A DNA stretch of 39,100 nucleotides from Escherichia phage 6925, in sequence record ON637250.1. One strand, written 5' to 3'. The position numbers were made by a program, and so were the translations under genes. The notes beneath the pieces are model-generated. The model did not search any database. It saw nothing but the letters and a program-made list of their open reading frames with translations, and was not told the origin of the DNA. Below, piece by piece: positions 1,097 to 17,324 of the stretch (positions within the stretch are counted from its first letter, which is position 1; every line of letters starts with the position of its first letter).

Positions 1097-1603
1097 ATGG
1101 AACGTAATGCTAACGCATACTATGAGCTGCTGGCTGCAACCGTTGAGGCATTTATCGAGCGTATTCAGTACGACCACCTGACTCAAGATGACGACTACAG
1201 CACTGCGCTGCATGAGGTCGTAGACGGTCAGGTTCCACACTATTACCACGAGATTTTTACGGTGATGGCTGCTGATGGTATAGACAACGAGTTCGAAGAC
1301 TCTGGGATGATACCTGAAACCAAGGACGTAACGCGTATCCTACAAGCTCGCATCTATGAGGCGCTTTATAACGATGTGTCTAATAGCTTGGATGTAGTCT
1401 GGTTTGAGGATGAAGAGGCAGACGAAGAGGATGAATATTGGGTAGTTGACGCTAAAACAGGCGCAATAATTGTGCAAGCTGTAGCTCTTGAGGTCGCTAC
1501 TGCATGTGCCAAGGTTAACTATGCGGCAGGTCGCCACCTGAAGGTGGAAGACATCAATGATAACGTAGTGTTCGACCCTGCGGCTGAGGACTGCGAGCGA
1601 TGA
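1097..1603 (+). CDS. 0.3: Ocr-like anti-restriction DNA mimic (T7 gene 0.3 homologue) with a C-terminal extension of about 50 aa
   Basis: [43 protein letters not shown] aligns with T7 Ocr as recalled ([43 protein letters not shown]), followed by an acidic [10 protein letters not shown] run. RBS GAGAGGA 7 nt upstream. T7 Ocr is 117 aa; this ORF is 168 aa. Confidence 0.85.
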   Translation: [168 protein letters not shown]

Positions 1604-1740
1604 TAAATTACGGTTTATGCCAGCACCACGTCACTAACGCCCGGCTTATGGTCAAGACCGGGCAGTTAGACCACGATTGGGCTATGCGTCTCTTGAAAGT
1701 GGTCTACAGGAGACGCAAGCGTATACACGACAGTTTACAC

Positions 1741-1795
1741 GCTAAGTGACAGACTACAGGTCATCAATGCTGGTGGCCTGACTGATAGTAATTAA
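1741..1795 (+). promoter_or_regulatory. RNase III-like hairpin repeat (early intergenic)
   Basis: A third copy: GACAGACTACAGGTCAT ... GGTGGCCTGACTGATAGTAA. Confidence 0.4.
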
Positions 1796-1812
1796 CAACT
1801 GAGAGGGAAGAT

Positions 1813-2040
1813 ATGAACACAATCACTGGTGCCATAACCAAAGGTTTTCGAGCAATTTTCGGTGAAACGCAAGAAGTATGCACCAATCATAAATTCGTAC
1901 TTTCTTGCGTAGCAGGTGACGAGTTTGACGGGTTCGATAAACTGGTGGTTTGCGACCATTGCGGACAAGAGGCTATCCAACACTCAAACGGTAAATTTGA
2001 ATTAATAGACGATAGCCTTACAGAAGGAGACGGCGAGTAA
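1813..2040 (+). CDS. Hypothetical early protein (75 aa) with four Cys (C-x8-C ... C-x2-C), possibly a zinc ribbon
   Basis: ORF with RBS GAGAGGG. Cys at residues 23, 32, 48 and 51 (CDHCG). Confidence 0.55.
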   Translation: MNTITGAITKGFRAIFGETQEVCTNHKFVLSCVAGDEFDGFDKLVVCDHCGQEAIQHSNGKFELIDDSLTEGDGE

Positions 2041-2094
2041 CCTAAATAAACAGGAGAGAACCAAATCATAGCTTGACCATAACACTGACGTGAT

Positions 2095-2145
2095 GGTACT
2101 GAGTGATAGACGAGAGGTCATCGACTGATAGGTGGCCTCAAAGAT
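2095..2145 (+). promoter_or_regulatory. RNase III-like hairpin repeat (degenerate copy)
   Basis: GAGAGGTCATCGACTGATAGGTGGCCTC resembles the other early repeats. Confidence 0.3.
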
Positions 2146-2213
2146 TACCACTTACATTGATAGGAGTTAACTATTAGCACTGCAATCGTCTGGACTATCT
2201 CAGGCTTAGTAGC

Positions 2214-2477
2214 GTGGGGAATGTTTACTCTAGTCTGCAAACTACCGGTCCTTACTCAACTGTTATGGGGCTTATGACTATGAGTATCGCACTATTGATA
2301 GCCATAGGCTATGGACTTATCGCCTACGTGCTGGTGAGAGACATCAACAAAGCGCGTAAAGTCTACAAATTCAACTATGTACGTCTGGGTAGCTGGACTG
2401 TACGTCAACCTAACGGACGATTCATGCGTAACTTAGCGAACGTCTGGGATATAGCAACACTTGGGAGCAAACTGTAA
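2214..2477 (+). CDS. Hypothetical small membrane protein; start uncertain (GTG at 2214 or an internal ATG at about 2265-2274)
   Basis: ORF with a hydrophobic segment SIALLIAIGYGLIAYVLV followed by a basic tail. No strong RBS. Its stop overlaps the next start (TAATG). Confidence 0.4.
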   Translation: MGNVYSSLQTTGPYSTVMGLMTMSIALLIAIGYGLIAYVLVRDINKARKVYKFNYVRLGSWTVRQPNGRFMRNLANVWDIATLGSKL

Positions 2478-2803
2478 TGAACAAGTCATACGGGATTAAT
2501 CTGGTACACTCTATGGACGCAGACATGCAAATGTTAAGCCTACTGGCTACCGGGTATCGTCACGGAACGTCAAGTCACTCCGCACGTCAACAGCAGGAGC
2601 GGGACCGGGTACTGCAAGCAAGACTCCGGGCTGATGGCCATATATACGAACTGATGAGTCTGGCGTATGGTGGACGACCAATCACTGACGATGGTAAACT
2701 TTTAGTCTCAGGCTGGAAGGCGATAGACCAACGGTCAACCATCAAGCACACGACTCATGGTGACTTCAGTCATCTTCACGCTAACCCACTGATATGCAAG
2801 TGA
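2477..2803 (+). CDS. Hypothetical early protein (108 aa), in the position T7 gene 0.7 occupies but not kinase-like
   Basis: ORF translationally coupled to the upstream gene (TAATG). No protein-kinase motifs recognised. Confidence 0.45.
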   Translation: MNKSYGINLVHSMDADMQMLSLLATGYRHGTSSHSARQQQERDRVLQARLRADGHIYELMSLAYGGRPITDDGKLLVSGWKAIDQRSTIKHTTHGDFSHLHANPLICK

Positions 2804-2808
2804 TTCTG

Positions 2809-2831
2809 ACTTAACTATCACTATAGGACTC
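2809..2831 (+). promoter_or_regulatory. Phage RNAP promoter, canonical copy, directly upstream of the RNAP gene
   Basis: ACTTAACTATCACTATA|GGACTC is identical in -17..-1 to the right-end promoter at 38496; +1 G at 2826. Confidence 0.6.
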
Positions 2832-2900
2832 AAGGTCTAAGACTCCAAGTGAAAGACCAAAGAGACTCTAAGTGAAAGACTAATAACAAGGACTTTAAGT

Positions 2901-5582
2901 ATGAGCGTCATCTCTATTGACAAGCACGACTTCTCTGATGTGTCGAACGCCATTGAGCCGTTTAACCTACTGGCTGACCACTACGGGCAAGACCTTGCAG
3001 TCAAACAGCTTCAGCTTGAGCACGAGGCATACACTGAAGGCGAGCGACGTTTCATCAAGAACCTTGAGAGACAGACTGAGCGAGGGGAACTGGCAGACAA
3101 TCAGGTCGCCAAGCCTTTGATGCAGACTCTGGTCCCTAAGATTGCGCAAGCCGTCAAGGAGTGGCATGAAGGTCCAGACGGGAAGCTGTCAACCTCTCGT
3201 CCAAGCGTAGCGTTCACCGTGTTGAGCACTGAAGAGAAGGCCGTCAAGGACCGCTCTATGCGCATCTCCTGTGAGTCCGCTGCGGTTATCATACTGAAGG
3301 TCATACTCTCCAAGCTGGTCAAGCCTGAAGGGATACCGATTACACCGATGGCCTCCGCGATAGGTCGCACACTTGAGGACGAAATCCGCTTCGGTCGCAT
3401 CCGTGACAAAGAGAAAGAGCACTTCAAGAAGGCGATAGCTGATAACCTGAATAAGCGGGCCGGGGCGTCATACAAGAAAGCCTACATGCAAGCGGTCGAG
3501 GCGTCCATGCTGGAGCAAGGCCAACTGGAAGATGCGTGGGGGACTTGGAGTCCTACAGAGGCTGTCCACGTTGGCATCAAGATGCTCGAGATTGTCATCC
3601 AGTCAACACAACTGGTCGAGCTTAAGCGGTACGGTGCTGGCAATGCAGCGGCTGATGTAGAGATGGTCCACCTGTCAGACTTCTGGGTCAAGAAGATGGC
3701 ACAACGAGGATTCAGCCTTGCGGGTATCGCTCCAGTCTATCAGCCTTGCGTCGTTCCACCTAAGCCGTGGACTGGTGTCGTAGGCGGTGGGTATTGGGCC
3801 AAAGGTCGAAGACCATTGCCACTGATTCGCTTAGGGTCTAAGTCTGCGGTATCACGCTACGAAGACGTGTATATGCCTGAAGTCTATGACGCTGTGAACA
3901 TCATTCAGAATACACCTTGGAAAGTGAACAAGAAGGTTCTGGAAGTGGTGAACATGGTCGAGAAGCTGAACAACACGCCTATTGATGACATCCCTCAGAT
4001 GGAACCGCTGAAGCCTGAGGACTATGCTGGTGAGACTGAAGAAGAACTCAAGGCATGGAAGAAGGCTGCTGCTGGTATCTATCGCCGCGAGAAGGCCAGA
4101 CAGTCACGAAGATTGTCACTGAGCTTTATCGTCAACCAAGCGAACAAGTTCTCTCAGTTCAAGGCCATCTGGTTCCCGTATAACATGGACTGGCGCGGTC
4201 GCGTCTACGCTGTGCCGATGTTCAACCCTCAGGGTAACGACATGCAAAAGGGTCTTCTGACTCTGGCAGTTGGTAAGCCTATTGGTGCTGATGGTTTCAA
4301 ATGGCTGAAGGTCCACGGTGCAAACTGCGCGGGTGTCGATAAAGTCACCTTCGAGGAGCGTATCAAGTGGGTGGAAGATAACCACGACAACATCATGGCT
4401 GCTGCCAAGGCACCGATGGATAGCATTGAGTGGTGGGGCAAGTTAGACTCTCCGTTCTGCTTCCTAGCGTTCTGCTTCGAGTATGCTGGCGTAATGCACC
4501 ACGGCTTGTCTTACTCCTGCTCGCTGCCGATAGCGTTCGATGGGTCCTGCTCTGGGATTCAGCACTTCAGCGCTATGCTTCGCGACCACATCGGTGGACA
4601 TGCAGTAAACCTGACGCCATCCGGTAAGGTCCAAGACATCTACCGCATCGTGTCTGACCGCATTGAGGAGGAGCTTAAAGTCCTACTGGTTAACGGTACG
4701 GACAACGAGATGGTAACTCACGAGGACAAGAAAACTGGTGAGATTACCGAACGTATCAAGCTGGGGACACGAGAGCTTGCCCGTCAGTGGCTGACCTACG
4801 GTATGTCACGAAAGGTCACTAAGCGTTCGGTCATGACTCTGGCCTACGGGTCGAAAGAGTACGGCTTCGCAGACCAAGTTTACGAGGACATCGTGATGCC
4901 AGCGATTGACTCAGGGTCTGGCGCTATGTTCACTGAACCAAGCCAAGCATCTCGCTTCATGGCTAAGATGATTTGGGAAGCTGTGAGTGTGACCGTAGTT
5001 GCTGCGGTTGACGCGATGAAGTGGCTTCAGGGTGCTGCCAAGCTGCTGGCTGCTGAAGTGAAGGACAAGAAGACTGGCGAAATCCTGAAGCCATGCCTTC
5101 CGGTACACTGGGTAACACCTGATGGTTTCCCTGTCTGGCAGGAATACCGCAAGAAGGATACCACTCGTCTGAACCTGATGTTCTTAGGGTCATTCAACCT
5201 TCAGCCTACAGTCAACAAAGGAACGAAGAAAGAGCTTGACAAGCACAAGCAGGAGTCAGGCATTAGCCCTAACTTCGTCCACTCACAAGATGGTAGCCAC
5301 CTGCGGAAGACTGTAGTCCACACTCACCGCAAGTATGGCGTGATGTCATTCGCAGTGATTCACGATAGCTTCGGGACCATCCCTGCTGACGCTGAGTATC
5401 TGTTCCGTGGTGTCCGTGAGACGATGGTCGAGACATACCGCGATAACGATGTGCTGCTTGACTTCTACGAGCAGTTTGAATACCAGCTTCATGAAAGTCA
5501 GCGCGACAAGTTGCCTGAGCTTCCGAAGAAAGGTAAACTGAATATCGAAGACATCTTGTCTTCAGACTTTGCATTCGCTTAA
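2901..5582 (+). CDS. 1: T7-like single-subunit DNA-dependent RNA polymerase
   Basis: 893 aa, collinear with T7 RNAP as recalled, including DGSCSGIQHFSAMLRD, HDSFGT and the C-terminal FAFA. RBS AAGGA. Confidence 0.97.
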   Translation: MSVISIDKHDFSDVSNAIEPFNLLADHYGQDLAVKQLQLEHEAYTEGERRFIKNLERQTERGELADNQVAKPLMQTLVPKIAQAVKEWHEGPDGKLSTSRPSVAFTVLSTEEKAVKDRSMRISCESAAVIILKVILSKLVKPEGIPITPMASAIGRTLEDEIRFGRIRDKEKEHFKKAIADNLNKRAGASYKKAYMQAVEASMLEQGQLEDAWGTWSPTEAVHVGIKMLEIVIQSTQLVELKRYGAGNAAADVEMVHLSDFWVKKMAQRGFSLAGIAPVYQPCVVPPKPWTGVVGGGYWAKGRRPLPLIRLGSKSAVSRYEDVYMPEVYDAVNIIQNTPWKVNKKVLEVVNMVEKLNNTPIDDIPQMEPLKPEDYAGETEEELKAWKKAAAGIYRREKARQSRRLSLSFIVNQANKFSQFKAIWFPYNMDWRGRVYAVPMFNPQGNDMQKGLLTLAVGKPIGADGFKWLKVHGANCAGVDKVTFEERIKWVEDNHDNIMAAAKAPMDSIEWWGKLDSPFCFLAFCFEYAGVMHHGLSYSCSLPIAFDGSCSGIQHFSAMLRDHIGGHAVNLTPSGKVQDIYRIVSDRIEEELKVLLVNGTDNEMVTHEDKKTGEITERIKLGTRELARQWLTYGMSRKVTKRSVMTLAYGSKEYGFADQVYEDIVMPAIDSGSGAMFTEPSQASRFMAKMIWEAVSVTVVAAVDAMKWLQGAAKLLAAEVKDKKTGEILKPCLPVHWVTPDGFPVWQEYRKKDTTRLNLMFLGSFNLQPTVNKGTKKELDKHKQESGISPNFVHSQDGSHLRKTVVHTHRKYGVMSFAVIHDSFGTIPADAEYLFRGVRETMVETYRDNDVLLDFYEQFEYQLHESQRDKLPELPKKGKLNIEDILSSDFAFA

Positions 5583-8946: not shown

Positions 8947-9636
8947 ATGGCTAAAGAGCAACTGAAGACTTTCACCACTCCGGTAGCTGGTATCGTTGAG
9001 CCTTACGCATGGCTGAACAAAGCAGACACCAAGTTTAATGAGCGTGGTGAGCATAAGGTTAACCTGACGTTCGACCTGAGCGACCCGAAGGTCCGTAAGA
9101 TGATTGATGTCTTACAGAAGATTCACGACGATGCGTATGCGAAAGCACTCGCAGACCACGAGAAGAACCCACCTCAGGTTCAGCGTGGCAAGAAGCCTAT
9201 TGAACCACGTGAAGGCGACATGCCGTGGATTGAGAATGGTGACGGTACTGTTACCCTTAAGTTTAAATGCTTTGCGTCTTACCTGAAAGACGGCAAGTCC
9301 GAGCCTATCGTATTACGGTTCTACGACACCGATGCTAAACTCATCCGTGACGTCCCGAATATCTGCGCTGGGTCTAAGCTGAAGGTCAAGTTTAAAGTCC
9401 TGCCGTTCAAGTGGAACGCTGCGACTGGTGCAAGCGTTAAGCTTCAGCTTGAGTCCTGCCTTCTGGTAGAACTGAAGGAGTGGAAAGGTGATGGTGGCGA
9501 TGGTGGCTGGGGTGATGATGAAGACCTCGGTACTGGTTACAAAGCGTCAACCGTTGGTGACTTCGGTGGTGATGACTTCGGTGACGATGGTTCCGAAGGT
9601 GGTGACGATGATTACGAAGGCGATTACAACTTCTAA
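8947..9636 (+). CDS. 2.5: Single-stranded DNA-binding protein
   Basis: 229 aa, collinear with T7 gp2.5 (GDMPW, KFKC, SKLKVKFKVLPFKWN, VKLQLES), with an acidic C-terminal tail ending in F. Confidence 0.93.
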   Translation: MAKEQLKTFTTPVAGIVEPYAWLNKADTKFNERGEHKVNLTFDLSDPKVRKMIDVLQKIHDDAYAKALADHEKNPPQVQRGKKPIEPREGDMPWIENGDGTVTLKFKCFASYLKDGKSEPIVLRFYDTDAKLIRDVPNICAGSKLKVKFKVLPFKWNAATGASVKLQLESCLLVELKEWKGDGGDGGWGDDEDLGTGYKASTVGDFGGDDFGDDGSEGGDDDYEGDYNF

Positions 9637-10088
9637 TGGCCCAATGGTCTGCAAAACGGGGGCACTCTGTGGGTGCCTACCGCTCTGGACTTGAAGCCAA
9701 GAACCAGCAGTGGCTGGAACAGAACGGCGTCAAAGCGGAGTACGAAAGCCATTATATCAACTATGTGATTCCGGCTTCCGACCACAAGTACACACCAGAT
9801 TTTATCCTTCCTAACGGTATCATCGTGGAGACCAAAGGTATCTTCGATAGTGATGACCGTAAGAAGCACCTTCTGGTACGAGAACAGCACCCAGAGTTAG
9901 ACATCCGGTTCGTGTTCTCAAGTTCACGCTCCAAGTTATACAAAGGGTCTCCAACCACGTATGGCGCATGGTGCGAAAAGAACGGCTATAAGTATGCCGA
10001 TAAATTCATCCCGGTTGAGTGGCTTCGAGAGGCGACTGTACGTCTGCCTTCAGGTATACTCATCCCCAAGAAGAAAGGAGTTAAGTGA
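9636..10088 (+). CDS. 3: Endonuclease I (Holliday junction resolvase)
   Basis: 150 aa; YTPDFILPNGIIVETKG, DDRKKHLLVREQHPELDIRFVFSSSRSKLYKGSPTTYG match T7 endonuclease I. Confidence 0.93.
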   Translation: MAQWSAKRGHSVGAYRSGLEAKNQQWLEQNGVKAEYESHYINYVIPASDHKYTPDFILPNGIIVETKGIFDSDDRKKHLLVREQHPELDIRFVFSSSRSKLYKGSPTTYGAWCEKNGYKYADKFIPVEWLREATVRLPSGILIPKKKGVK

Positions 10089-10579
10089 TGAGCAAGAAGT
10101 TTAAACTGTTAGTAGATGCGCATGGCTGGCCTAGTGGGACTATAGTTACCAAGTGTGAGAATGACCCCGTACCAGATTCAAGAATGACCCTAGTTGAGTG
10201 CCAGACTCCAGGCGCATACAAACATGGGTCTAACGGCTGCAATACTCAGCCTGAGGGTATGTGGGGAGCATGGGTCCTTAATTGGAAACTTGAGGAAATC
10301 AAGCCGGAAGAGAAACTCACTGGTGTCCAAACCACTCAAGTCCTGCCAGCTTCGAGCGTACCGCCTGTGACTTTGAAGCGTGAAGTCCTGACCATCGACA
10401 AGATTGGTGTAGGCCAGACGTTCATCGTCCATGGAAAGCCTGAAGAAGTTTACGTGAAGATTAGCAACTCACACGTCTTCAACCATAAGCATCTCCAGAT
10501 GCACACCACGGACGCACAACGCTTCACCCAGCACCTGAATCTGGTTGTCGTAGAATTGGTGGTGTACAATGGTAAGTAA
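10085..10579 (+). CDS. Hypothetical protein (164 aa) between endonuclease I and the amidase; no T7 counterpart recognised
   Basis: RBS AAAGGAG. Starts GTG at 10085 or ATG at 10088, overlapping the endonuclease I stop. Confidence 0.55.
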   Translation: MMSKKFKLLVDAHGWPSGTIVTKCENDPVPDSRMTLVECQTPGAYKHGSNGCNTQPEGMWGAWVLNWKLEEIKPEEKLTGVQTTQVLPASSVPPVTLKREVLTIDKIGVGQTFIVHGKPEEVYVKISNSHVFNHKHLQMHTTDAQRFTQHLNLVVVELVVYNGK

Positions 10580-11027
10580 GGTACAGTTCAATCCACGGTC
10601 CCGGACCGACGCTATCTTCGTACACTGTTCGGCTACCAAGCCAGAGATGGACATCGGGGTAGAGACCATCCGTATGTGGCACAAGCAGCAAGGCTGGCTG
10701 GACGTAGGATACCACTTCATCATCAAGCGCGATGGCACTGTGGAAGAGGGACGCCCGGTCAATGTCGTAGGGTCACACGTTAAGGACTGGAACTCACGGT
10801 CTGTAGGCGTCTGCCTTGTAGGTGGAATTGACGCTAAGGGCAAGTTTGAAGCTAACTTCACTCCGGCCCAGATGAACTCCCTGCGCAACAAGCTGGCTGA
10901 CCTGAAAGTCCTGTATCCTCAGGCAGAAATCAAAGCACACCATGACGTAGCACCTAAGGCGTGTCCAAGTTTTGACTTGCAACGCTGGCTGTCTACCAAC
11001 GAACTTGTCACTTCAGACCGTGGTTAA
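10569..11027 (+). CDS. 3.5: N-acetylmuramoyl-L-alanine amidase (T7 lysozyme, RNAP inhibitor)
   Basis: 152 aa; DAIFVHCSATKP, WLDVGYHFIIKRDGTVEEGR, GVCLVGGID, HHDVAPKACPSFDL and C-terminal NELVTSDRG match T7 gp3.5. Confidence 0.95.
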   Translation: MVSKVQFNPRSRTDAIFVHCSATKPEMDIGVETIRMWHKQQGWLDVGYHFIIKRDGTVEEGRPVNVVGSHVKDWNSRSVGVCLVGGIDAKGKFEANFTPAQMNSLRNKLADLKVLYPQAEIKAHHDVAPKACPSFDLQRWLSTNELVTSDRG

Positions 11028-11051: not shown

Positions 11052-11267
11052 ATGATTAAACTTATCGAATTTCTTGGTCGTCTGGTGGTGCGTGGCTATC
11101 GTCGTGCTGCAGTACTGGAACGAAAGGTAGAAAAGAAGACTGCTGACGGTGCGGCTGATGCTGCTGCGCTGGCTGACAAGCTGACCATCGCATCACTGGA
11201 AGCTGGCATGAAGGCGCGTCAAGCTGATACCAAAGCTGACCAGTTGGCTCAGTTCTTCAAAGCCTAA
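11052..11267 (+). CDS. Hypothetical protein, predicted helical (about 71 aa); alternative start at 11037
   Basis: GGAGA sits 9 nt before the ATG at 11052; Ala- and Lys-rich sequence. Confidence 0.45.
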   Translation: MIKLIEFLGRLVVRGYRRAAVLERKVEKKTADGAADAAALADKLTIASLEAGMKARQADTKADQLAQFFKA

Positions 11268-11285
11268 ACTATCACCTTAGGGATG
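11263..11285 (+). promoter_or_regulatory. Possible weak or variant phage promoter (phi4-like), core CACCTTA
   Basis: CCTAAACTATCACCTTA|GGGATG: the upstream half is exact, with two mismatches at -4/-3. Confidence 0.35.
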
Positions 11286-13275: not shown

Positions 13276-15447
13276 ATGTTTGACCTTAAGAGTATCTGGG
13301 GTTCTGACATCGAGACCAACGGTCTCCTTGATACAGTCTCCCAGTTTCACTGTGGGGTCCTGATTAACGCCGAGTCGAATGAGACCCTTAAGTATGGGGT
13401 AGCTCCGATGGTCGGTATCGTCGGTGGCTTCAAAGAGTATGTGCAGAAGGTGGAAGATATTGCCGCATCACCTGATGGTATGCTGATATTCCACAACGGT
13501 ATCAACTATGACGTCCCGGCTATTGACAAGCTGAAGCGTCTGTACTTCGGGAAACGCTTTAACTTCCCGAAACACAAGATGATTGATACCTTGGTGCTGG
13601 GTCGCTTGATGTATCCCAACATTAAGTTCTCAGACATGGGAGCGGTGAAAGCTGGTCGTCTGCCTCCTAAGATGATGGGACGCCAGTCTCTTGAGGCTTG
13701 GGGTTATCGTCTCGGTGAGATGAAGGGTGAGTACAAACACGATTACGTTGCCAAGTGCAAGGCAGAAGGTATCGAATATAAGGCTGGGGACGAATGGTTG
13801 TTCCCGTCTCAGGAGATGCTGGACTATAACGTTCAGGACGTTGTGGTCACACTGGCGTTGTTCAAGAAGTTCCTGACTGACAAGTATTACTTCCAGTCTG
13901 AACAGTTCGCTTTCGACCAGATTTATGCGTTGCGTCTGGAACATGATGCTGCGTGGACCTGTGCGAAGATGGAACGTAATGGCTATCCGATGAACACCGA
14001 GATGGTCGAAGGCTTATATCGTGAACTCACCGTCAAACGTGCAGAGTTGTTGGACAAGCTGCGTTCGACTTTCGGTAGCTGGTACGCACCAAAGGGAGGC
14101 AAGGAGTTCTTCAAGCACCCACGGACTGGCAAGGACCTTCCGAAGTATCCGCGAGTCGTGTACCCTAAGGTCGGGTCAGTATTCAAGAAGCCGAAGAACA
14201 AAGCTCAACGCTTAGGTCTGGAACCTTGCGAGTTCGACTCACGAGACACGATGAAGGGAGCACCGTTCACACCTATCACTTACGTTGAGTTTAATCCGGG
14301 AAGCGGAGACCACTTAGCGAAAGTCCTGATGGAGCGTGGCTGGGAGCCTGTGGACTTCACTGACACCGGGAAACCTGTAGTCGATGACGAGACGTTAGAA
14401 CACGTTAAGTTACCAGACGCAGAGGCTCAGGCTTGCGTAGAGCTGGTCCGTGAGTATCTGGTAGTCCAGAAGAGAATCGGGCAGGCTGCTGAAGGTAAGA
14501 ACGCTTGGTTGAAACTTGTAGGTCCAGACGGACGTATGCACGGTTCAATCAACCCATGTGGTGCAGTAACCGGACGTGCGACTCATAGTTCACCAAACAT
14601 GGCTCAGGTCCCGGCTAACGGTGCTCCATACGGTGAGACTTGCCGTGGTGCTTTCGGTGCAGCGTGGAACAAGAAGGACGGTAAGCCAGACCCTTGGATT
14701 CAAGTAGGTGTGGATGCCTCAGGTCTTGAGCTTCGTTGTCTTGGGAACAGAGCGGCTCCGTTTGATGGTGGTGCCTATGCGAAGACTGTGGTCGAAGGTG
14801 ACATCCACTGGGCCAACGCAGTAAACGCTGGGTTAGCACCTAACGTCCAACGCGATAAGTCTAACCACGACCATGAGGCTTTCCGTAACAACGCTAAGAC
14901 GTTCATCTACGCGTTCCTGTATGGTGCAGGGGCCGCTAAGATTGGACTGATAGTAGGCGGTGGTAAGAAGGAAGGTTCAGCGCTCATGAAGAAATTCATT
15001 GAGGGTACACCAGCTATCAAGGACCTCAGGGAAGCTGTGCAGAACACGCTCATCTCTGAGTCCAAATGGGTAGACGGTGAGAACATCGTGAAGTGGAAAC
15101 GCCGCTGGCTGAAAGGTCTGGACGGTCGACGCATCCACATCCGGTCGCCACACTCAGCACTGAACGCCTTACTTCAAGGTGATGGTGCGGTAGTCTGTAA
15201 GCACTGGATTGTTGAGACTGAACGTATGCTTGAAGCCGAAGGATATGTCCACGGCTGGGATGGAGACTTTGCGTACATGGCATGGGTGCACGATGAGCTA
15301 CAAATTGCCTGTAAAAACAAGGACTTAGCAGAACGCGTAGTAGAAATTGCTCAACTTGCTATGCGTAAGGTTGGTGAGTTCTATAACTTTAAATGTGTGT
15401 TAGACACGGAGGGTAAAATTGGACCAACGTGGAAAGAATGCCATTGA
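13276..15447 (+). CDS. 5: DNA polymerase (family A, T7 gp5-like)
   Basis: ATG at 13276 after GGAGGA. DIETNGL exonuclease motif; FHNG..YDVPA, SLEAWGYRLGEMKGEYK and the C-terminal HDELQ and GPTWKECH are collinear with T7 gp5. Confidence 0.96.
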   Translation: MFDLKSIWGSDIETNGLLDTVSQFHCGVLINAESNETLKYGVAPMVGIVGGFKEYVQKVEDIAASPDGMLIFHNGINYDVPAIDKLKRLYFGKRFNFPKHKMIDTLVLGRLMYPNIKFSDMGAVKAGRLPPKMMGRQSLEAWGYRLGEMKGEYKHDYVAKCKAEGIEYKAGDEWLFPSQEMLDYNVQDVVVTLALFKKFLTDKYYFQSEQFAFDQIYALRLEHDAAWTCAKMERNGYPMNTEMVEGLYRELTVKRAELLDKLRSTFGSWYAPKGGKEFFKHPRTGKDLPKYPRVVYPKVGSVFKKPKNKAQRLGLEPCEFDSRDTMKGAPFTPITYVEFNPGSGDHLAKVLMERGWEPVDFTDTGKPVVDDETLEHVKLPDAEAQACVELVREYLVVQKRIGQAAEGKNAWLKLVGPDGRMHGSINPCGAVTGRATHSSPNMAQVPANGAPYGETCRGAFGAAWNKKDGKPDPWIQVGVDASGLELRCLGNRAAPFDGGAYAKTVVEGDIHWANAVNAGLAPNVQRDKSNHDHEAFRNNAKTFIYAFLYGAGAAKIGLIVGGGKKEGSALMKKFIEGTPAIKDLREAVQNTLISESKWVDGENIVKWKRRWLKGLDGRRIHIRSPHSALNALLQGDGAVVCKHWIVETERMLEAEGYVHGWDGDFAYMAWVHDELQIACKNKDLAERVVEIAQLAMRKVGEFYNFKCVLDTEGKIGPTWKECH

Positions 15448-15835
15448 CGGAAAGTCCCTGCATTATACAGGTGCTGCGAGCGAGTTGTATGCGAGCTACC
15501 GACTGACGGCTATGGGACACCAAGTCTTCCTACCTGCGTTCACCCAGTCCAAAGCGGACTTAGTGGTGGATATCAACGGGACCCTTATGAGGGTTCAGGT
15601 GAAAACTGGGACCAAGCTGAAGAACTGTAATAGCATTCAGGTCCGGCTTGGTGGGTGCGGTAAGCCAACTTACAGTCCTGGAGACATCGACCTACTAGCG
15701 GTTGTCTATCAGGATTTGCTCTGGCTTATACCGTTCACTGAAGAGGTTAGAGTCAAGACCTCTATGTGTATAAACTTAACGTCTGACAAGAAGTACGGAC
15801 AATTTAAACAGGAGAAGACTAATGGCTATTACTAA
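15419..15835 (+). CDS. Hypothetical protein (138 aa) with a PD-(D/E)xK-like motif arrangement; TTG start overlapping the DNAP 3' end
   Basis: GGAGGG sits 5 nt before the TTG at 15419. Candidate catalytic residues are E in SELYASYRL, D in ADLVVD and Q-V-K in RVQVK. Function inferred only. Confidence 0.45.
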   Translation: MDQRGKNAIDGKSLHYTGAASELYASYRLTAMGHQVFLPAFTQSKADLVVDINGTLMRVQVKTGTKLKNCNSIQVRLGGCGKPTYSPGDIDLLAVVYQDLLWLIPFTEEVRVKTSMCINLTSDKKYGQFKQEKTNGYY

Positions 15836-16106
15836 ACGTATTCGTGTGAGTTTTGATCTGAAGATGGTTGTTAACTCAAAGGAAGAAGATACCATGTGTC
15901 GCCAACTGGCTGAGATGACTAAAGCCTACGCTGAGGGTGAGGAGCTGGATGGTCTTCAGTTGGCTATGGTAAAAACCGCAATCGAGTCAGGCCCTGAGTC
16001 TGCCCTTGAAATTGCCCTCAAGAAGACCATCAAGGAGGAGCTGGTAGACGACTTTGGTTATGGCCAGTTCGGAGTATCTAACCTGCGATTCGAGGTCAAG
16101 CAATGA
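15822..16106 (+). CDS. 5.5: gp5.5-like protein
   Basis: N-terminus MAITKRIRVSFDL matches T7 gp5.5 (MAMTKKFKVSFDV) as recalled. RBS CAGGAGAAG. Confidence 0.7.
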   Translation: MAITKRIRVSFDLKMVVNSKEEDTMCRQLAEMTKAYAEGEELDGLQLAMVKTAIESGPESALEIALKKTIKEELVDDFGYGQFGVSNLRFEVKQ

Positions 16107-17301: not shown

Positions 17302-17324
17302 ACTAAACTATCACTATAGGGACT
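17302..17324 (+). promoter_or_regulatory. Phage RNAP promoter (phi6.5-like)
   Basis: ACTAAACTATCACTATA|GGGACT; +1 at 17319. Confidence 0.75.

What the first reader, a model, noticed from the sequence alone, without database searches (positions are those of the whole stretch)
15419..15835. PD-(D/E)xK-like ORF with TTG start overlapping the DNA polymerase 3' end
A 138-aa ORF starts at a TTG 5 nt after a GGAGGG site inside the last codons of the DNAP gene. It shows the residue arrangement of restriction-endonuclease-fold nucleases: E in SELYASYRL, D in ADLVVD, Q-V-K in RVQVK. It could be a nuclease (recombination, host DNA degradation or homing-like function) rather than a T7 gp5.3 equivalent.
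Basis: inference. Interest (0 to 1): 0.5.

Follow-up and report, generated by a model that had tools for sequence, protein, structure and literature searches.

The report
T7 gp5.3-type PD-(D/E)xK endonuclease gene
The ORF is real and encodes a small restriction-fold nuclease, but it is the counterpart of T7 gene 5.3, not an alternative to it. It belongs to the family of the homing endonuclease I-Ssp6803I and behaves like a mobile cassette sitting just after the phage DNA polymerase gene.

Summary
ORF 15419-15835 (138 aa) starts at a TTG 5 nt after GGAGGG, inside the last codons of the DNA polymerase gene.

The fold call is also right:
- Pfam PF11645 (PDDEXK_5) scores above its cut-off.
- E22, D47, Q60 and K62 are conserved across 52 homologues.

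The contrast with T7 gp5.3 is wrong. The ORF is 47% identical to T7 gp5.3, sits in the same slot between gene 5 and gene 5.5, and gp5.3 is itself a PF11645 protein.

In close Kayfunavirus relatives the slot is empty, holds this gene, holds an unrelated HNH endonuclease, or holds a 53-aa ORF.
- Near-identical backbones differ in what fills the slot.
- Near-identical cassettes sit beside divergent polymerase tails.
- Every carrier of this gene, and three of the four HNH carriers, share a recoded polymerase tail that creates the GGAGGG-TTG start. No genome with an empty slot has it.
- dN/dS is 0.03-0.23.

Best reading: a free-standing homing endonuclease gene. Site-specific cleavage is not shown. 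This is a new member of a known family, of modest interest.

The parts
15408..15413 (+). GGAGGG Shine-Dalgarno site inside the last codons of the DNA polymerase gene. It is created by synonymous changes relative to genomes with an empty slot, which read CGAAGG.
   Evidence: Sequence read. Present in all carriers of this gene and in 3 HNH carriers; absent from all 16 loci with an empty slot or the small insert.
15419..15835 (+). gp5.3-type PD-(D/E)xK endonuclease gene (138 aa, TTG start, TAA stop at 15833-15835).
   Evidence: ORF list. PF11645. phrog_5018 E 6e-29. 47% identity to T7 gp5.3. Structural matches to I-Ssp6803I. dN/dS 0.03-0.23.
15419..15447 (+). 29-nt overlap with the 3' end of the DNA polymerase gene. 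The first 9-10 codons (MDQRGKNAID) are read in a second frame of the polymerase tail.
   Evidence: The same ten N-terminal codons head the unrelated HNH cassette in U8, L025 and L026. Residues 1-13 are predicted disordered.
15482..15604 (+). Catalytic core codons: E22 (15482-15484), D47 (15557-15559), Q60 (15596-15598), K62 (15602-15604).
   Evidence: Invariant or nearly invariant in alignment A3. Aligned with the I-Ssp6803I motif YDLV...VQVK.
15446..15820 (+). 375-nt segment that is absent from relatives with an empty slot (CR44b, LNA5 and others). In those genomes the gene 5 stop overlaps the gene 5.5 ATG (CACTAATGG).
   Evidence: Alignments. Survey of the slot in 89 loci. A probe spanning the empty junction matches at 80% coverage or more in 79 GenBank phage records.
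13240..15447 (+). DNA polymerase gene (gene 5). The last ~420 nt are a mosaic, hypervariable tail. The final 15 codons are recoded synonymously in cassette carriers.
15822..16106 (+). Gene 5.5 homologue (H-NS-binding protein in related records). Its first 14 nt overlap the end of the ORF.
11267..11283 (+). Nearest upstream phage-type promoter (before gene 4). There is none between gene 5 and the ORF, so the ORF rides on the DNA-metabolism transcript.
   Evidence: Promoter consensus search: 11 matches against 0.1 expected by chance; the next one is at 17306.

Best explanation
The ORF encodes a small, single-domain PD-(D/E)xK DNA endonuclease of the I-Ssp6803I / T7 gp5.3 family (PF11645). It most likely acts as a free-standing homing endonuclease.

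Expression (inferred): the gene is transcribed with genes 4-6 from the phage promoter at 11267. Translation starts at a weak TTG behind a strong GGAGGG site built into the polymerase tail, which should keep protein levels low.

Biochemistry (inferred from the family): the protein probably forms an oligomer as I-Ssp6803I does. It binds a long target and cuts both strands using E22, D47, Q60 and K62 with one metal ion.

Biology (inferred): in a mixed infection it would cut relatives that lack the cassette, at or near the gene 5 / gene 5.5 junction or within the last few hundred nt of gene 5. Recombinational repair from the carrier genome would then copy in the cassette together with the recoded polymerase tail.

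Shown here: the fold, family membership, conserved catalytic residues, purifying selection, a presence/absence/replacement polymorphism at one slot, and cassette histories that are decoupled from the flanking sequence.

Not shown here: nuclease activity, site specificity, and that the nuclease itself drives the exchange.
For: Fold and family:
- PF11645 at 40.5 bits against a cut-off of 26.1.
- Profile against 2OST, E 1.6e-8.
- Foldseek top hit 2OST, E 3.6e-8, TM 0.61-0.65.
- Model core pLDDT is about 90.
- D47, Q60 and K62 are invariant and E22 nearly so.

The gene is functional: dN/dS 0.03-0.23.

Patchy distribution at one slot:
- Among 20 close IMG/VR relatives, 10 are empty, 4 hold a 53-aa ORF, 3 hold this gene and 3 hold an HNH gene; a 21st carries its HNH within gene 5 instead.
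- Only 3 of 58 more distant Studiervirinae loci carry this gene.

Mobility:
- YZ1 (this gene) and LNA5 (empty) have flanks 82-100% identical (mostly 92% or more), apart from an unrelated ~450-nt insert in YZ1 further downstream.
- L027 (this gene) and L026 (HNH) have flanks 78-100% identical (mostly 90% or more).
- The L023 and YZ1 cassettes are about 97.5% identical (dS 0.09), yet most of the ~420 nt of polymerase tail next to them is only 73-87% identical.

The empty state is not a simple deletion of the filled state. The last 15 polymerase codons differ at 9 synonymous sites, including the SD and the stop codon. The change therefore happens by allele replacement.

The HNH cassettes of U8 and L026 end with a duplicate of the empty-type polymerase tail (GGAGTGTCACTAATGG), a footprint of insertion.

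Family members sit in typical homing-endonuclease contexts:
- directly after DNA polymerase genes in other T7-like phages and in Bruynoghevirus;
- inside a tRNA gene array in a Vibrio phage.

Decayed copies exist. P0007 has an in-frame deletion that removes D47, Q60 and K62.

T7 gene 5.3 is non-essential, and deletion mutants take over in serial passage. [quoted passage not shown]'. That implies a phage Gp5.3 cuts DNA in vivo.
Against: - No cleavage site or target was identified, and no activity data exist for this protein.
- The gene occupies the same slot across several genera at about 50% identity. That also fits an old, vertically inherited accessory gene that is often lost.
- Phage genomes are mosaic anyway, so exchange at this slot need not be driven by the nuclease.
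- Among Kayfunavirus carriers the cassette alleles are old (dS up to 1.8), so this is not a recent sweep.
- The Xu et al. paper could not be read. Which phage's Gp5.3 it studies, and whether cleavage is site-specific, is unknown to me.
- In I-Ssp6803I the position aligned with E22 is Gln, so the role of E22 is not settled by homology.
Confidence: 0.58

Rival explanations
1. It is a resident accessory nuclease of the T7-type DNA-metabolism module, not a selfish element. It would be vertically inherited and often lost. It would cut host or competitor DNA, or phage DNA intermediates, without promoting its own spread. Its DNA ends may also be what the host Ppl defence senses.
For: - The gene holds the same slot after gene 5 in Teseptimavirus, Berlinvirus, Przondovirus, Kayfunavirus and a more distant T7-like group.
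- Selection is strongly purifying and the alleles are old.
- It is co-transcribed with replication genes.
- The early title of Xu et al. links Gp5.3 cleavage products to Ppl activation.
Against: - Only about 3 of 21 close and 3 of 58 distant relatives carry it.
- The slot is alternatively filled by an HNH homing-type endonuclease.
- Nearly identical cassettes sit in divergent flanks.
- T7 deletion mutants outgrow wild type in the laboratory.
- Family members also occur in tRNA arrays and in unrelated phage families.
- gp3 and gp6 already cover host DNA breakdown.
Confidence: 0.27
2. It is a structure-specific nuclease (a Holliday-junction or branched-DNA resolvase like archaeal Hjc) that helps resolve replication or recombination intermediates.
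Against: - The window already encodes the T7 resolvase, gp3 endonuclease I (PF05367, E 3e-81).
- The gene is dispensable in T7 and absent from most relatives.
Confidence: 0.05
3. It is a catalytically inactive or decaying remnant, kept only because it overlaps the ends of genes 5 and 5.5.
For: Truncated or internally deleted copies exist in relatives (P0007, P0010, NS1, a T7 variant).
Against: - The window copy is full length with all conserved residues.
- dN/dS is 0.03-0.09 against every other carrier, measured over the non-overlapping codons 11-130.
- The model core is confident.
Confidence: 0.03

Closest known systems
Bacteriophage T7 gene 5.3 protein (118 aa; non-essential; long annotated as hypothetical)
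   Same: - 47% identity over 106 residues (E 5e-32).
- Same Pfam family.
- Same position between gene 5 and gene 5.5.
- Same conserved E...D...QxK residues.
   Different: - T7 gp5.3 starts at its own ATG 15 nt after the gene 5 stop. The window protein has a 14-residue N-terminal extension that starts at a TTG inside gene 5.
- The window protein also has a longer C-terminal tail that runs into gene 5.5.
I-Ssp6803I (PDB 2OST), the intron-encoded PD-(D/E)xK homing endonuclease of Synechocystis tRNA-fMet; founding member of PF11645
   Same: - Same motif P...D-L-V...V-Q-V-K, R, and Y..D-F-D.
- Similar size (138 against ~150 aa).
   Different: - Only 23% identical.
- The window gene is free-standing (no intron) and sits in a phage.
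- The helix residue E22 is Gln in I-Ssp6803I.
- The target, oligomeric state and cleavage pattern of the window protein are unknown.
HNH free-standing or intron-encoded endonucleases at the T7-like DNA polymerase gene (T3/phiYeO3-12 gene 5.3; the K1F intron endonuclease; U8-type HNH)
   Same: - Same genomic slot and the same patchy distribution.
- In U8, L025 and L026 the HNH gene apparently uses the same GGAGGG-TTG start and the same first ten codons.
   Different: The fold and catalytic chemistry are unrelated (HNH_3). There is no sequence similarity beyond the shared N-terminal codons that lie in the polymerase tail.
Archaeal Holliday junction resolvase Hjc
   Different: There is no detectable sequence similarity. 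The phage already has gp3 endonuclease I for that job.

Membership tests
Pfam PF11645 (PDDEXK_5; I-Ssp6803I-like PD-(D/E)xK endonucleases) | Score above the curated gathering threshold of the family model | tested here: met
   40.5 bits against a cut-off of 26.1, E 3.4e-10, residues 15-124 on model positions 4-122 of 138. All homologues retrieved that have a recorded domain carry PF11645.
Pfam PF11645 (PDDEXK_5; I-Ssp6803I-like PD-(D/E)xK endonucleases) | Restriction-endonuclease-like alpha/beta core most similar to I-Ssp6803I | tested here: met
   [not shown]
Pfam PF11645 (PDDEXK_5; I-Ssp6803I-like PD-(D/E)xK endonucleases) | Catalytic motif D ... (D/E/Q)-x-K in the expected strands | tested here: met
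   D47, Q60 and K62 are invariant in 52 sequences. They align with D37, Q50 and K52 of the 2OST chain.
T7 gp5.3 orthologous group | Significant sequence similarity to T7 gp5.3 and the same position between gene 5 and gene 5.5 | tested here: met
   BLASTP 47% identity, E 5e-32. phrog_5018 E 6e-29. Synteny shown.
Homing endonuclease (free-standing) | Patchy presence among close relatives at a fixed site, with cassette history decoupled from the flanks | tested here: met
   Slot survey. YZ1 and LNA5 have mostly 92-100% identical flanks but filled against empty slots. The L023 and YZ1 cassettes are ~97.5% identical beside polymerase tails that are mostly 73-87% identical.
Homing endonuclease (free-standing) | Site-specific cleavage of the cassette-less allele at or near the insertion site | not testable with these tools
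   This needs an in vitro cleavage assay on the gene 5 / 5.5 junction of an empty-slot phage.
Homing endonuclease (free-standing) | Nuclease-dependent super-Mendelian inheritance with co-conversion of flanking markers | not testable with these tools
   There is only indirect evidence. The recoded polymerase tail is always linked to the cassette, and the last ~420 nt of gene 5 are mosaic.
Holliday junction resolvase (Hjc-like) | Closest structural and sequence relatives are resolvases, and no other resolvase is encoded in the genome | tested here: not met
   [not shown]

The most novel reading that the evidence does not exclude
The last codons of the Kayfunavirus DNA polymerase gene may serve as a shared 'expression socket'. 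It consists of a synonymously recoded tail carrying GGAGGG-N5-TTG plus ten fixed N-terminal codons.

Two unrelated endonuclease cassettes, the PD-(D/E)xK gp5.3 type and an HNH type, would plug into this socket interchangeably. If so, the gp5.3 family would be a bona fide free-standing PD-(D/E)xK homing endonuclease lineage in phages. It would compete with HNH elements for one homing site. Its DNA ends might also make carriers visible to the host Ppl defence, which would help explain why the gene is so patchy.
Probability: 0.35. Interest if true: 0.55.

Novelty: new member of a known kind. Interest (0 to 1): 0.33.

Why it matters
Most GenBank records label this gene and its T7 counterpart 'hypothetical protein', or miss it altogether because of the TTG start (YZ1). 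Recognising it as an I-Ssp6803I-family nuclease gives a concrete function to test.

It also marks the gene 5 / 5.5 junction as a hot spot where selfish endonucleases compete. That explains the local mosaicism of the polymerase gene, which matters for phylogenies and for engineering T7-like therapeutic phages.

If Gp5.3 cleavage products do trigger the Ppl defence, presence or absence of this cassette would predict host range on Ppl-positive strains.

Tried and rejected
- NCBIfam gave no hit.
- The first single-sequence protein search found only 11 close relatives. A profile search was needed to reach 62.
- I tried to read Xu et al. 2026 (Ppl/Gp5.3) and the two primary I-Ssp6803I papers. None is held. 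The Gp5.3-Ppl link therefore rests on a title in a reference list. The cleavage pattern of I-Ssp6803I (3' overhangs) rests on my memory.
- The PhageMaP preprint does not mention gene 5.3.
- I looked by eye for a pseudo-palindromic target at the empty junction. About 7 of 10 pairs match around TAATGG|CTATTA. By a hand estimate that is not beyond chance once all possible centres are considered, and the element also survives in carriers. I dropped it.
- G+C content dips only slightly across 15150-16050 (0.43-0.51 against ~0.53). This does not inform on foreign origin.
- The resolvase reading was rejected because gp3 is present and I-Ssp6803I is the far better match.
- The pseudogene reading was rejected on dN/dS.
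Full report
**1. The observation**

The window is a T7-like phage of the genus Kayfunavirus. It is 99.8% identical over the tested region to Escherichia phage HC13.

The ORF at 15419-15835 (+) is 138 aa. It opens after an in-frame TAG at 15401-15403, and its first possible start is the TTG at 15419. GGAGGG lies at 15408-15413, five bases upstream.

The ORF overlaps the DNA polymerase gene (stop at 15445-15447) by 29 nt. It overlaps the next gene (ATG at 15822) by 14 nt.

The conserved domain begins at about His15. No ATG, GTG or TTG lies between the polymerase stop and that point, so TTG 15419 is the only canonical start that keeps the domain whole. The HC13 record annotates the same 417-nt CDS as a hypothetical protein. 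The YZ1 record misses it.

**2. What the protein is**

Sequence evidence:
- Pfam places it in PF11645 (PDDEXK_5) at 40.5 bits against a gathering score of 26.1.
- PHROGs places it in phrog_5018, function unknown.
- The only solved structure found by sequence is 2OST, the homing endonuclease I-Ssp6803I. The single sequence gives E 0.009. A 52-sequence profile gives E 1.6e-8.

Structural evidence:
- An AlphaFold2 model built on that alignment has a core pLDDT of about 90. Only residues 1-13 and 130-138 are disordered.

Conservation in the family alignment:
- P39, D47, Q60, K62, Q74, R76 and D91 are invariant.
- G18, E22, T42-Q43-S44-K45, V61, G79, Y85 and D89 are nearly invariant.

D47, Q60 and K62 align with the YDLV...VQVK motif of I-Ssp6803I.

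The family is large. It contains 6,908 clusters at 50% identity with E <= 1e-3, almost all of them proteins of about 130 residues.

**3. It is the T7 gp5.3 equivalent**

- tblastn and BLASTP give 47% identity to T7 gene 5.3 (E 5e-32).
- T7 gp5.3, Kvp1 gp5.3 and KP32 gp22 all score as PF11645.
- All of them sit between gene 5 and gene 5.5, or gene 6 where 5.5 is not recognised.

The gene is both.

T7 gene 5.3 is non-essential. Mutants with a disrupted 5.3 became dominant in long serial passage.

[quoted passage not shown] The published title omits 'Gp5.3-cleaved'. Ppl restricts T7. I could not read the paper. I therefore take from it only that some phage Gp5.3 is reported to cut DNA in infected cells.

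**4. The slot is polymorphic**

In CR44b and LNA5, gene 5 ends ...TGGAAGGAGTGTCACTAATGG, with its stop overlapping the ATG of gene 5.5. The window carries 375 extra bases (15446-15820) at that point.

A 151-nt probe across the empty junction matches at 80% coverage or more in 79 GenBank phage records.

I fetched 80 IMG/VR loci using the polymerase C-terminus and classified the slot.

| Set | Empty | 53-aa ORF (phrog_20928) | This gene | HNH gene |
|---|---|---|---|---|
| 21 close relatives (DNAP C-terminus >= 84% identical) | 10 | 4 | 3 | 3 (plus 1 with an HNH within gene 5, K1F-like) |
| 58 more distant Studiervirinae loci | most | not scored | 3 | 2 |

The HNH gene scores as Pfam HNH_3 at E 1.6e-18. 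The 53-aa ORF was identified.

Elsewhere the family appears in these contexts:
- directly after the polymerase gene, overlapping it by 10 nt, in another T7-like group;
- directly after the polymerase gene, overlapping it by 19 nt, in Bruynoghevirus phiIBB-PAA2 orf37A;
- between tRNA genes in a 127-kb Vibrio phage;
- among small ORFs in a Vequintavirinae phage.

**5. A shared, recoded polymerase tail**

Every carrier of this gene reads ACGGAGGGTAA(A/G)ATTGG...TGGAAAGA(A/G)TG(C/T)CATTGA in the last polymerase codons. That is 7 of 7 loci, counting the window. Three HNH carriers (U8, L025, L026) read the same.

Every locus with an empty slot or the small insert (16 of 16) lacks GGAGGG and reads ACCGAAGG(T/G)AAGAT(T/A)GG there; all but one end ...TGGAAGGAGTGTCACTA(A/G). 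All of these differences are synonymous for the polymerase.

They create the GGAGGG site, and a TGA stop in place of TAA or TAG comes with them. The loci are not phylogenetically independent, but the association has no exception.

The two unrelated endonucleases therefore appear to share one translation start and ten N-terminal codons, MDQRGK(N/S)(A/V)ID. For the HNH gene an internal ATG is an alternative start.

The HNH cassettes of U8 and L026 end with AAGAAGGAGTGTCACTAATGG. This is a second copy of the empty-type polymerase tail, a footprint of insertion into an empty site.

The right end of this gene's cassette (CAGGAGTAACACTAATGG or CAGGAGAAGACTAATGG) resembles a decayed copy of the same sequence. 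That last point is inference.

**6. Evidence for mobility and for function**

Over codons 11-130, outside the overlap with gene 5, dN/dS among six Kayfunavirus carriers is 0.03-0.23, with dS between 0.06 and 1.8. The protein is made and is under selection.

Flank comparisons (with for cassette divergence):
- YZ1 (this gene) and LNA5 (empty) are 82-100% identical (mostly 92% or more) on both sides of the slot, apart from an unrelated ~450-nt insert in YZ1 further downstream.
- L027 (this gene) and L026 (HNH) are 78-100% identical (mostly 90% or more) on both sides.
- The cassettes of L023 and YZ1 differ at only 9 sites in 360 nt (dS 0.09). Most of the ~420 nt of polymerase tail next to them is only 73-87% identical.

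The window's nearest backbone relatives by gene 6 (dS 0.06-0.10) are an empty-slot phage and an HNH carrier, not other carriers of this gene.

The last ~420 nt of gene 5 are a divergence hot spot, at 65-88% identity against 93-100% further upstream.

The filled and empty states differ at 9 synonymous sites in the last 15 polymerase codons. The change of state must therefore occur by allele replacement through recombination, not by simple deletion. Homing with co-conversion produces exactly that pattern.

Decayed copies exist. P0007 lacks residues 23-67, which include D47, Q60 and K62. There are also truncated or frameshifted copies in NS1 and in a T7 variant.

**7. Mechanism proposed**

The ORF lies in the transcription unit that starts at the phage promoter at 11267. 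There is no promoter between gene 5 and the ORF.

The steps below are inferred, not shown:
- Translation begins at the weak TTG behind a strong SD, giving low levels of a potentially dangerous nuclease.
- The enzyme uses D47, Q60 and K62, with E22, for metal-dependent cleavage.
- It cuts a long target in cassette-less relatives, at the gene 5 / 5.5 junction or within the last few hundred nt of gene 5.
- Repair from the carrier genome copies in the cassette together with the recoded tail.

**8. Rivals**

- A resident accessory nuclease that is simply lost often. This fits the conserved slot across genera and the old alleles. It fits less well with replacement by HNH genes, with cassette and flank histories being decoupled, and with the tRNA-array context.
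- A junction resolvase. This is unlikely, because the window encodes gp3 endonuclease I (PF05367, E 3e-81) and I-Ssp6803I is the much closer relative.
- A dead remnant. This is excluded by dN/dS.

**9. Verdict**

The gene is a new member of a known family (PF11645 / T7 gp5.3) and most likely a free-standing homing endonuclease.

The modestly new element is that two unrelated endonuclease cassettes use one start site embedded in the polymerase tail. Interest is moderate to low.

Noticed in passing
L004 (Escherichia phage vB_EcoP-U8) 2520-2861; also L025, L026, L028: An unannotated HNH_3 endonuclease ORF (113 aa) fills the same slot after gene 5. It apparently starts at the same TTG and SD inside the polymerase tail. 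It ends with a duplicate of the empty-type polymerase tail (KKECH*).
   Followed up: partly
L015 2572-2733; also L018, L019, L022: A third occupant of the gene 5 / 5.5 slot is a 53-aa ORF (MAKTYSEQEVKDLMRSAWWCGHEE...), phrog_20928, function unknown. It starts at the ATG or GTG that overlaps the polymerase stop.
   Followed up: partly
window 10085-10579 (+): A 164-aa ORF with a GTG start lies between gene 3 (endonuclease I, 9636-10088) and the amidase/lysozyme gene (10569-11027). It has no Pfam hit and matches phrog_16385 (function unknown). From memory, T7 has no gene at this position.
   Followed up: partly
window 15025-15400 (3' part of the DNA polymerase gene): The last ~420 nt of gene 5 are far more divergent from close relatives (65-88% identity, dS about 1 or saturated, dN up to 0.26) than the rest of the gene (93-100%). 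This points to several polymerase-tail alleles being shuffled among backbones.
   Followed up: partly
L006 (Klebsiella phage SAKp10309) 2924-3214, compared with window 15822-16106: Two very different gene 5.5 alleles (about 31% amino-acid identity) occur next to nearly the same PD-(D/E)xK cassette. Both alleles are also found in genomes with an empty slot.
   Followed up: no
L091 and L092 (metagenomic T7-like contigs) 1436-4010: The DNA polymerase gene is split by an HNH-containing insert, probably an intron. A PDDEXK_5 gene overlaps the polymerase 3' end, so one polymerase gene carries two endonuclease genes.
   Followed up: no
L005 (Escherichia phage YZ1) 3413-3862: An extra 150-aa ORF sits between gene 5.7 and gene 6. 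It is absent from the window and accounts for the ~450-nt length difference in that region.
   Followed up: no
window 2813-38516: Eleven phage-type promoter matches (AACTATCACTATAGGGA with up to 3 mismatches) are all on the + strand, against 0.1 expected by chance.
   Followed up: no
proteins P0144, P0156, P0162, P0177, P0194: A few family members are 460-632 aa long, with the PDDEXK_5 domain at the C-terminus and sometimes repeated. They may be fusions with an upstream gene.
   Followed up: no
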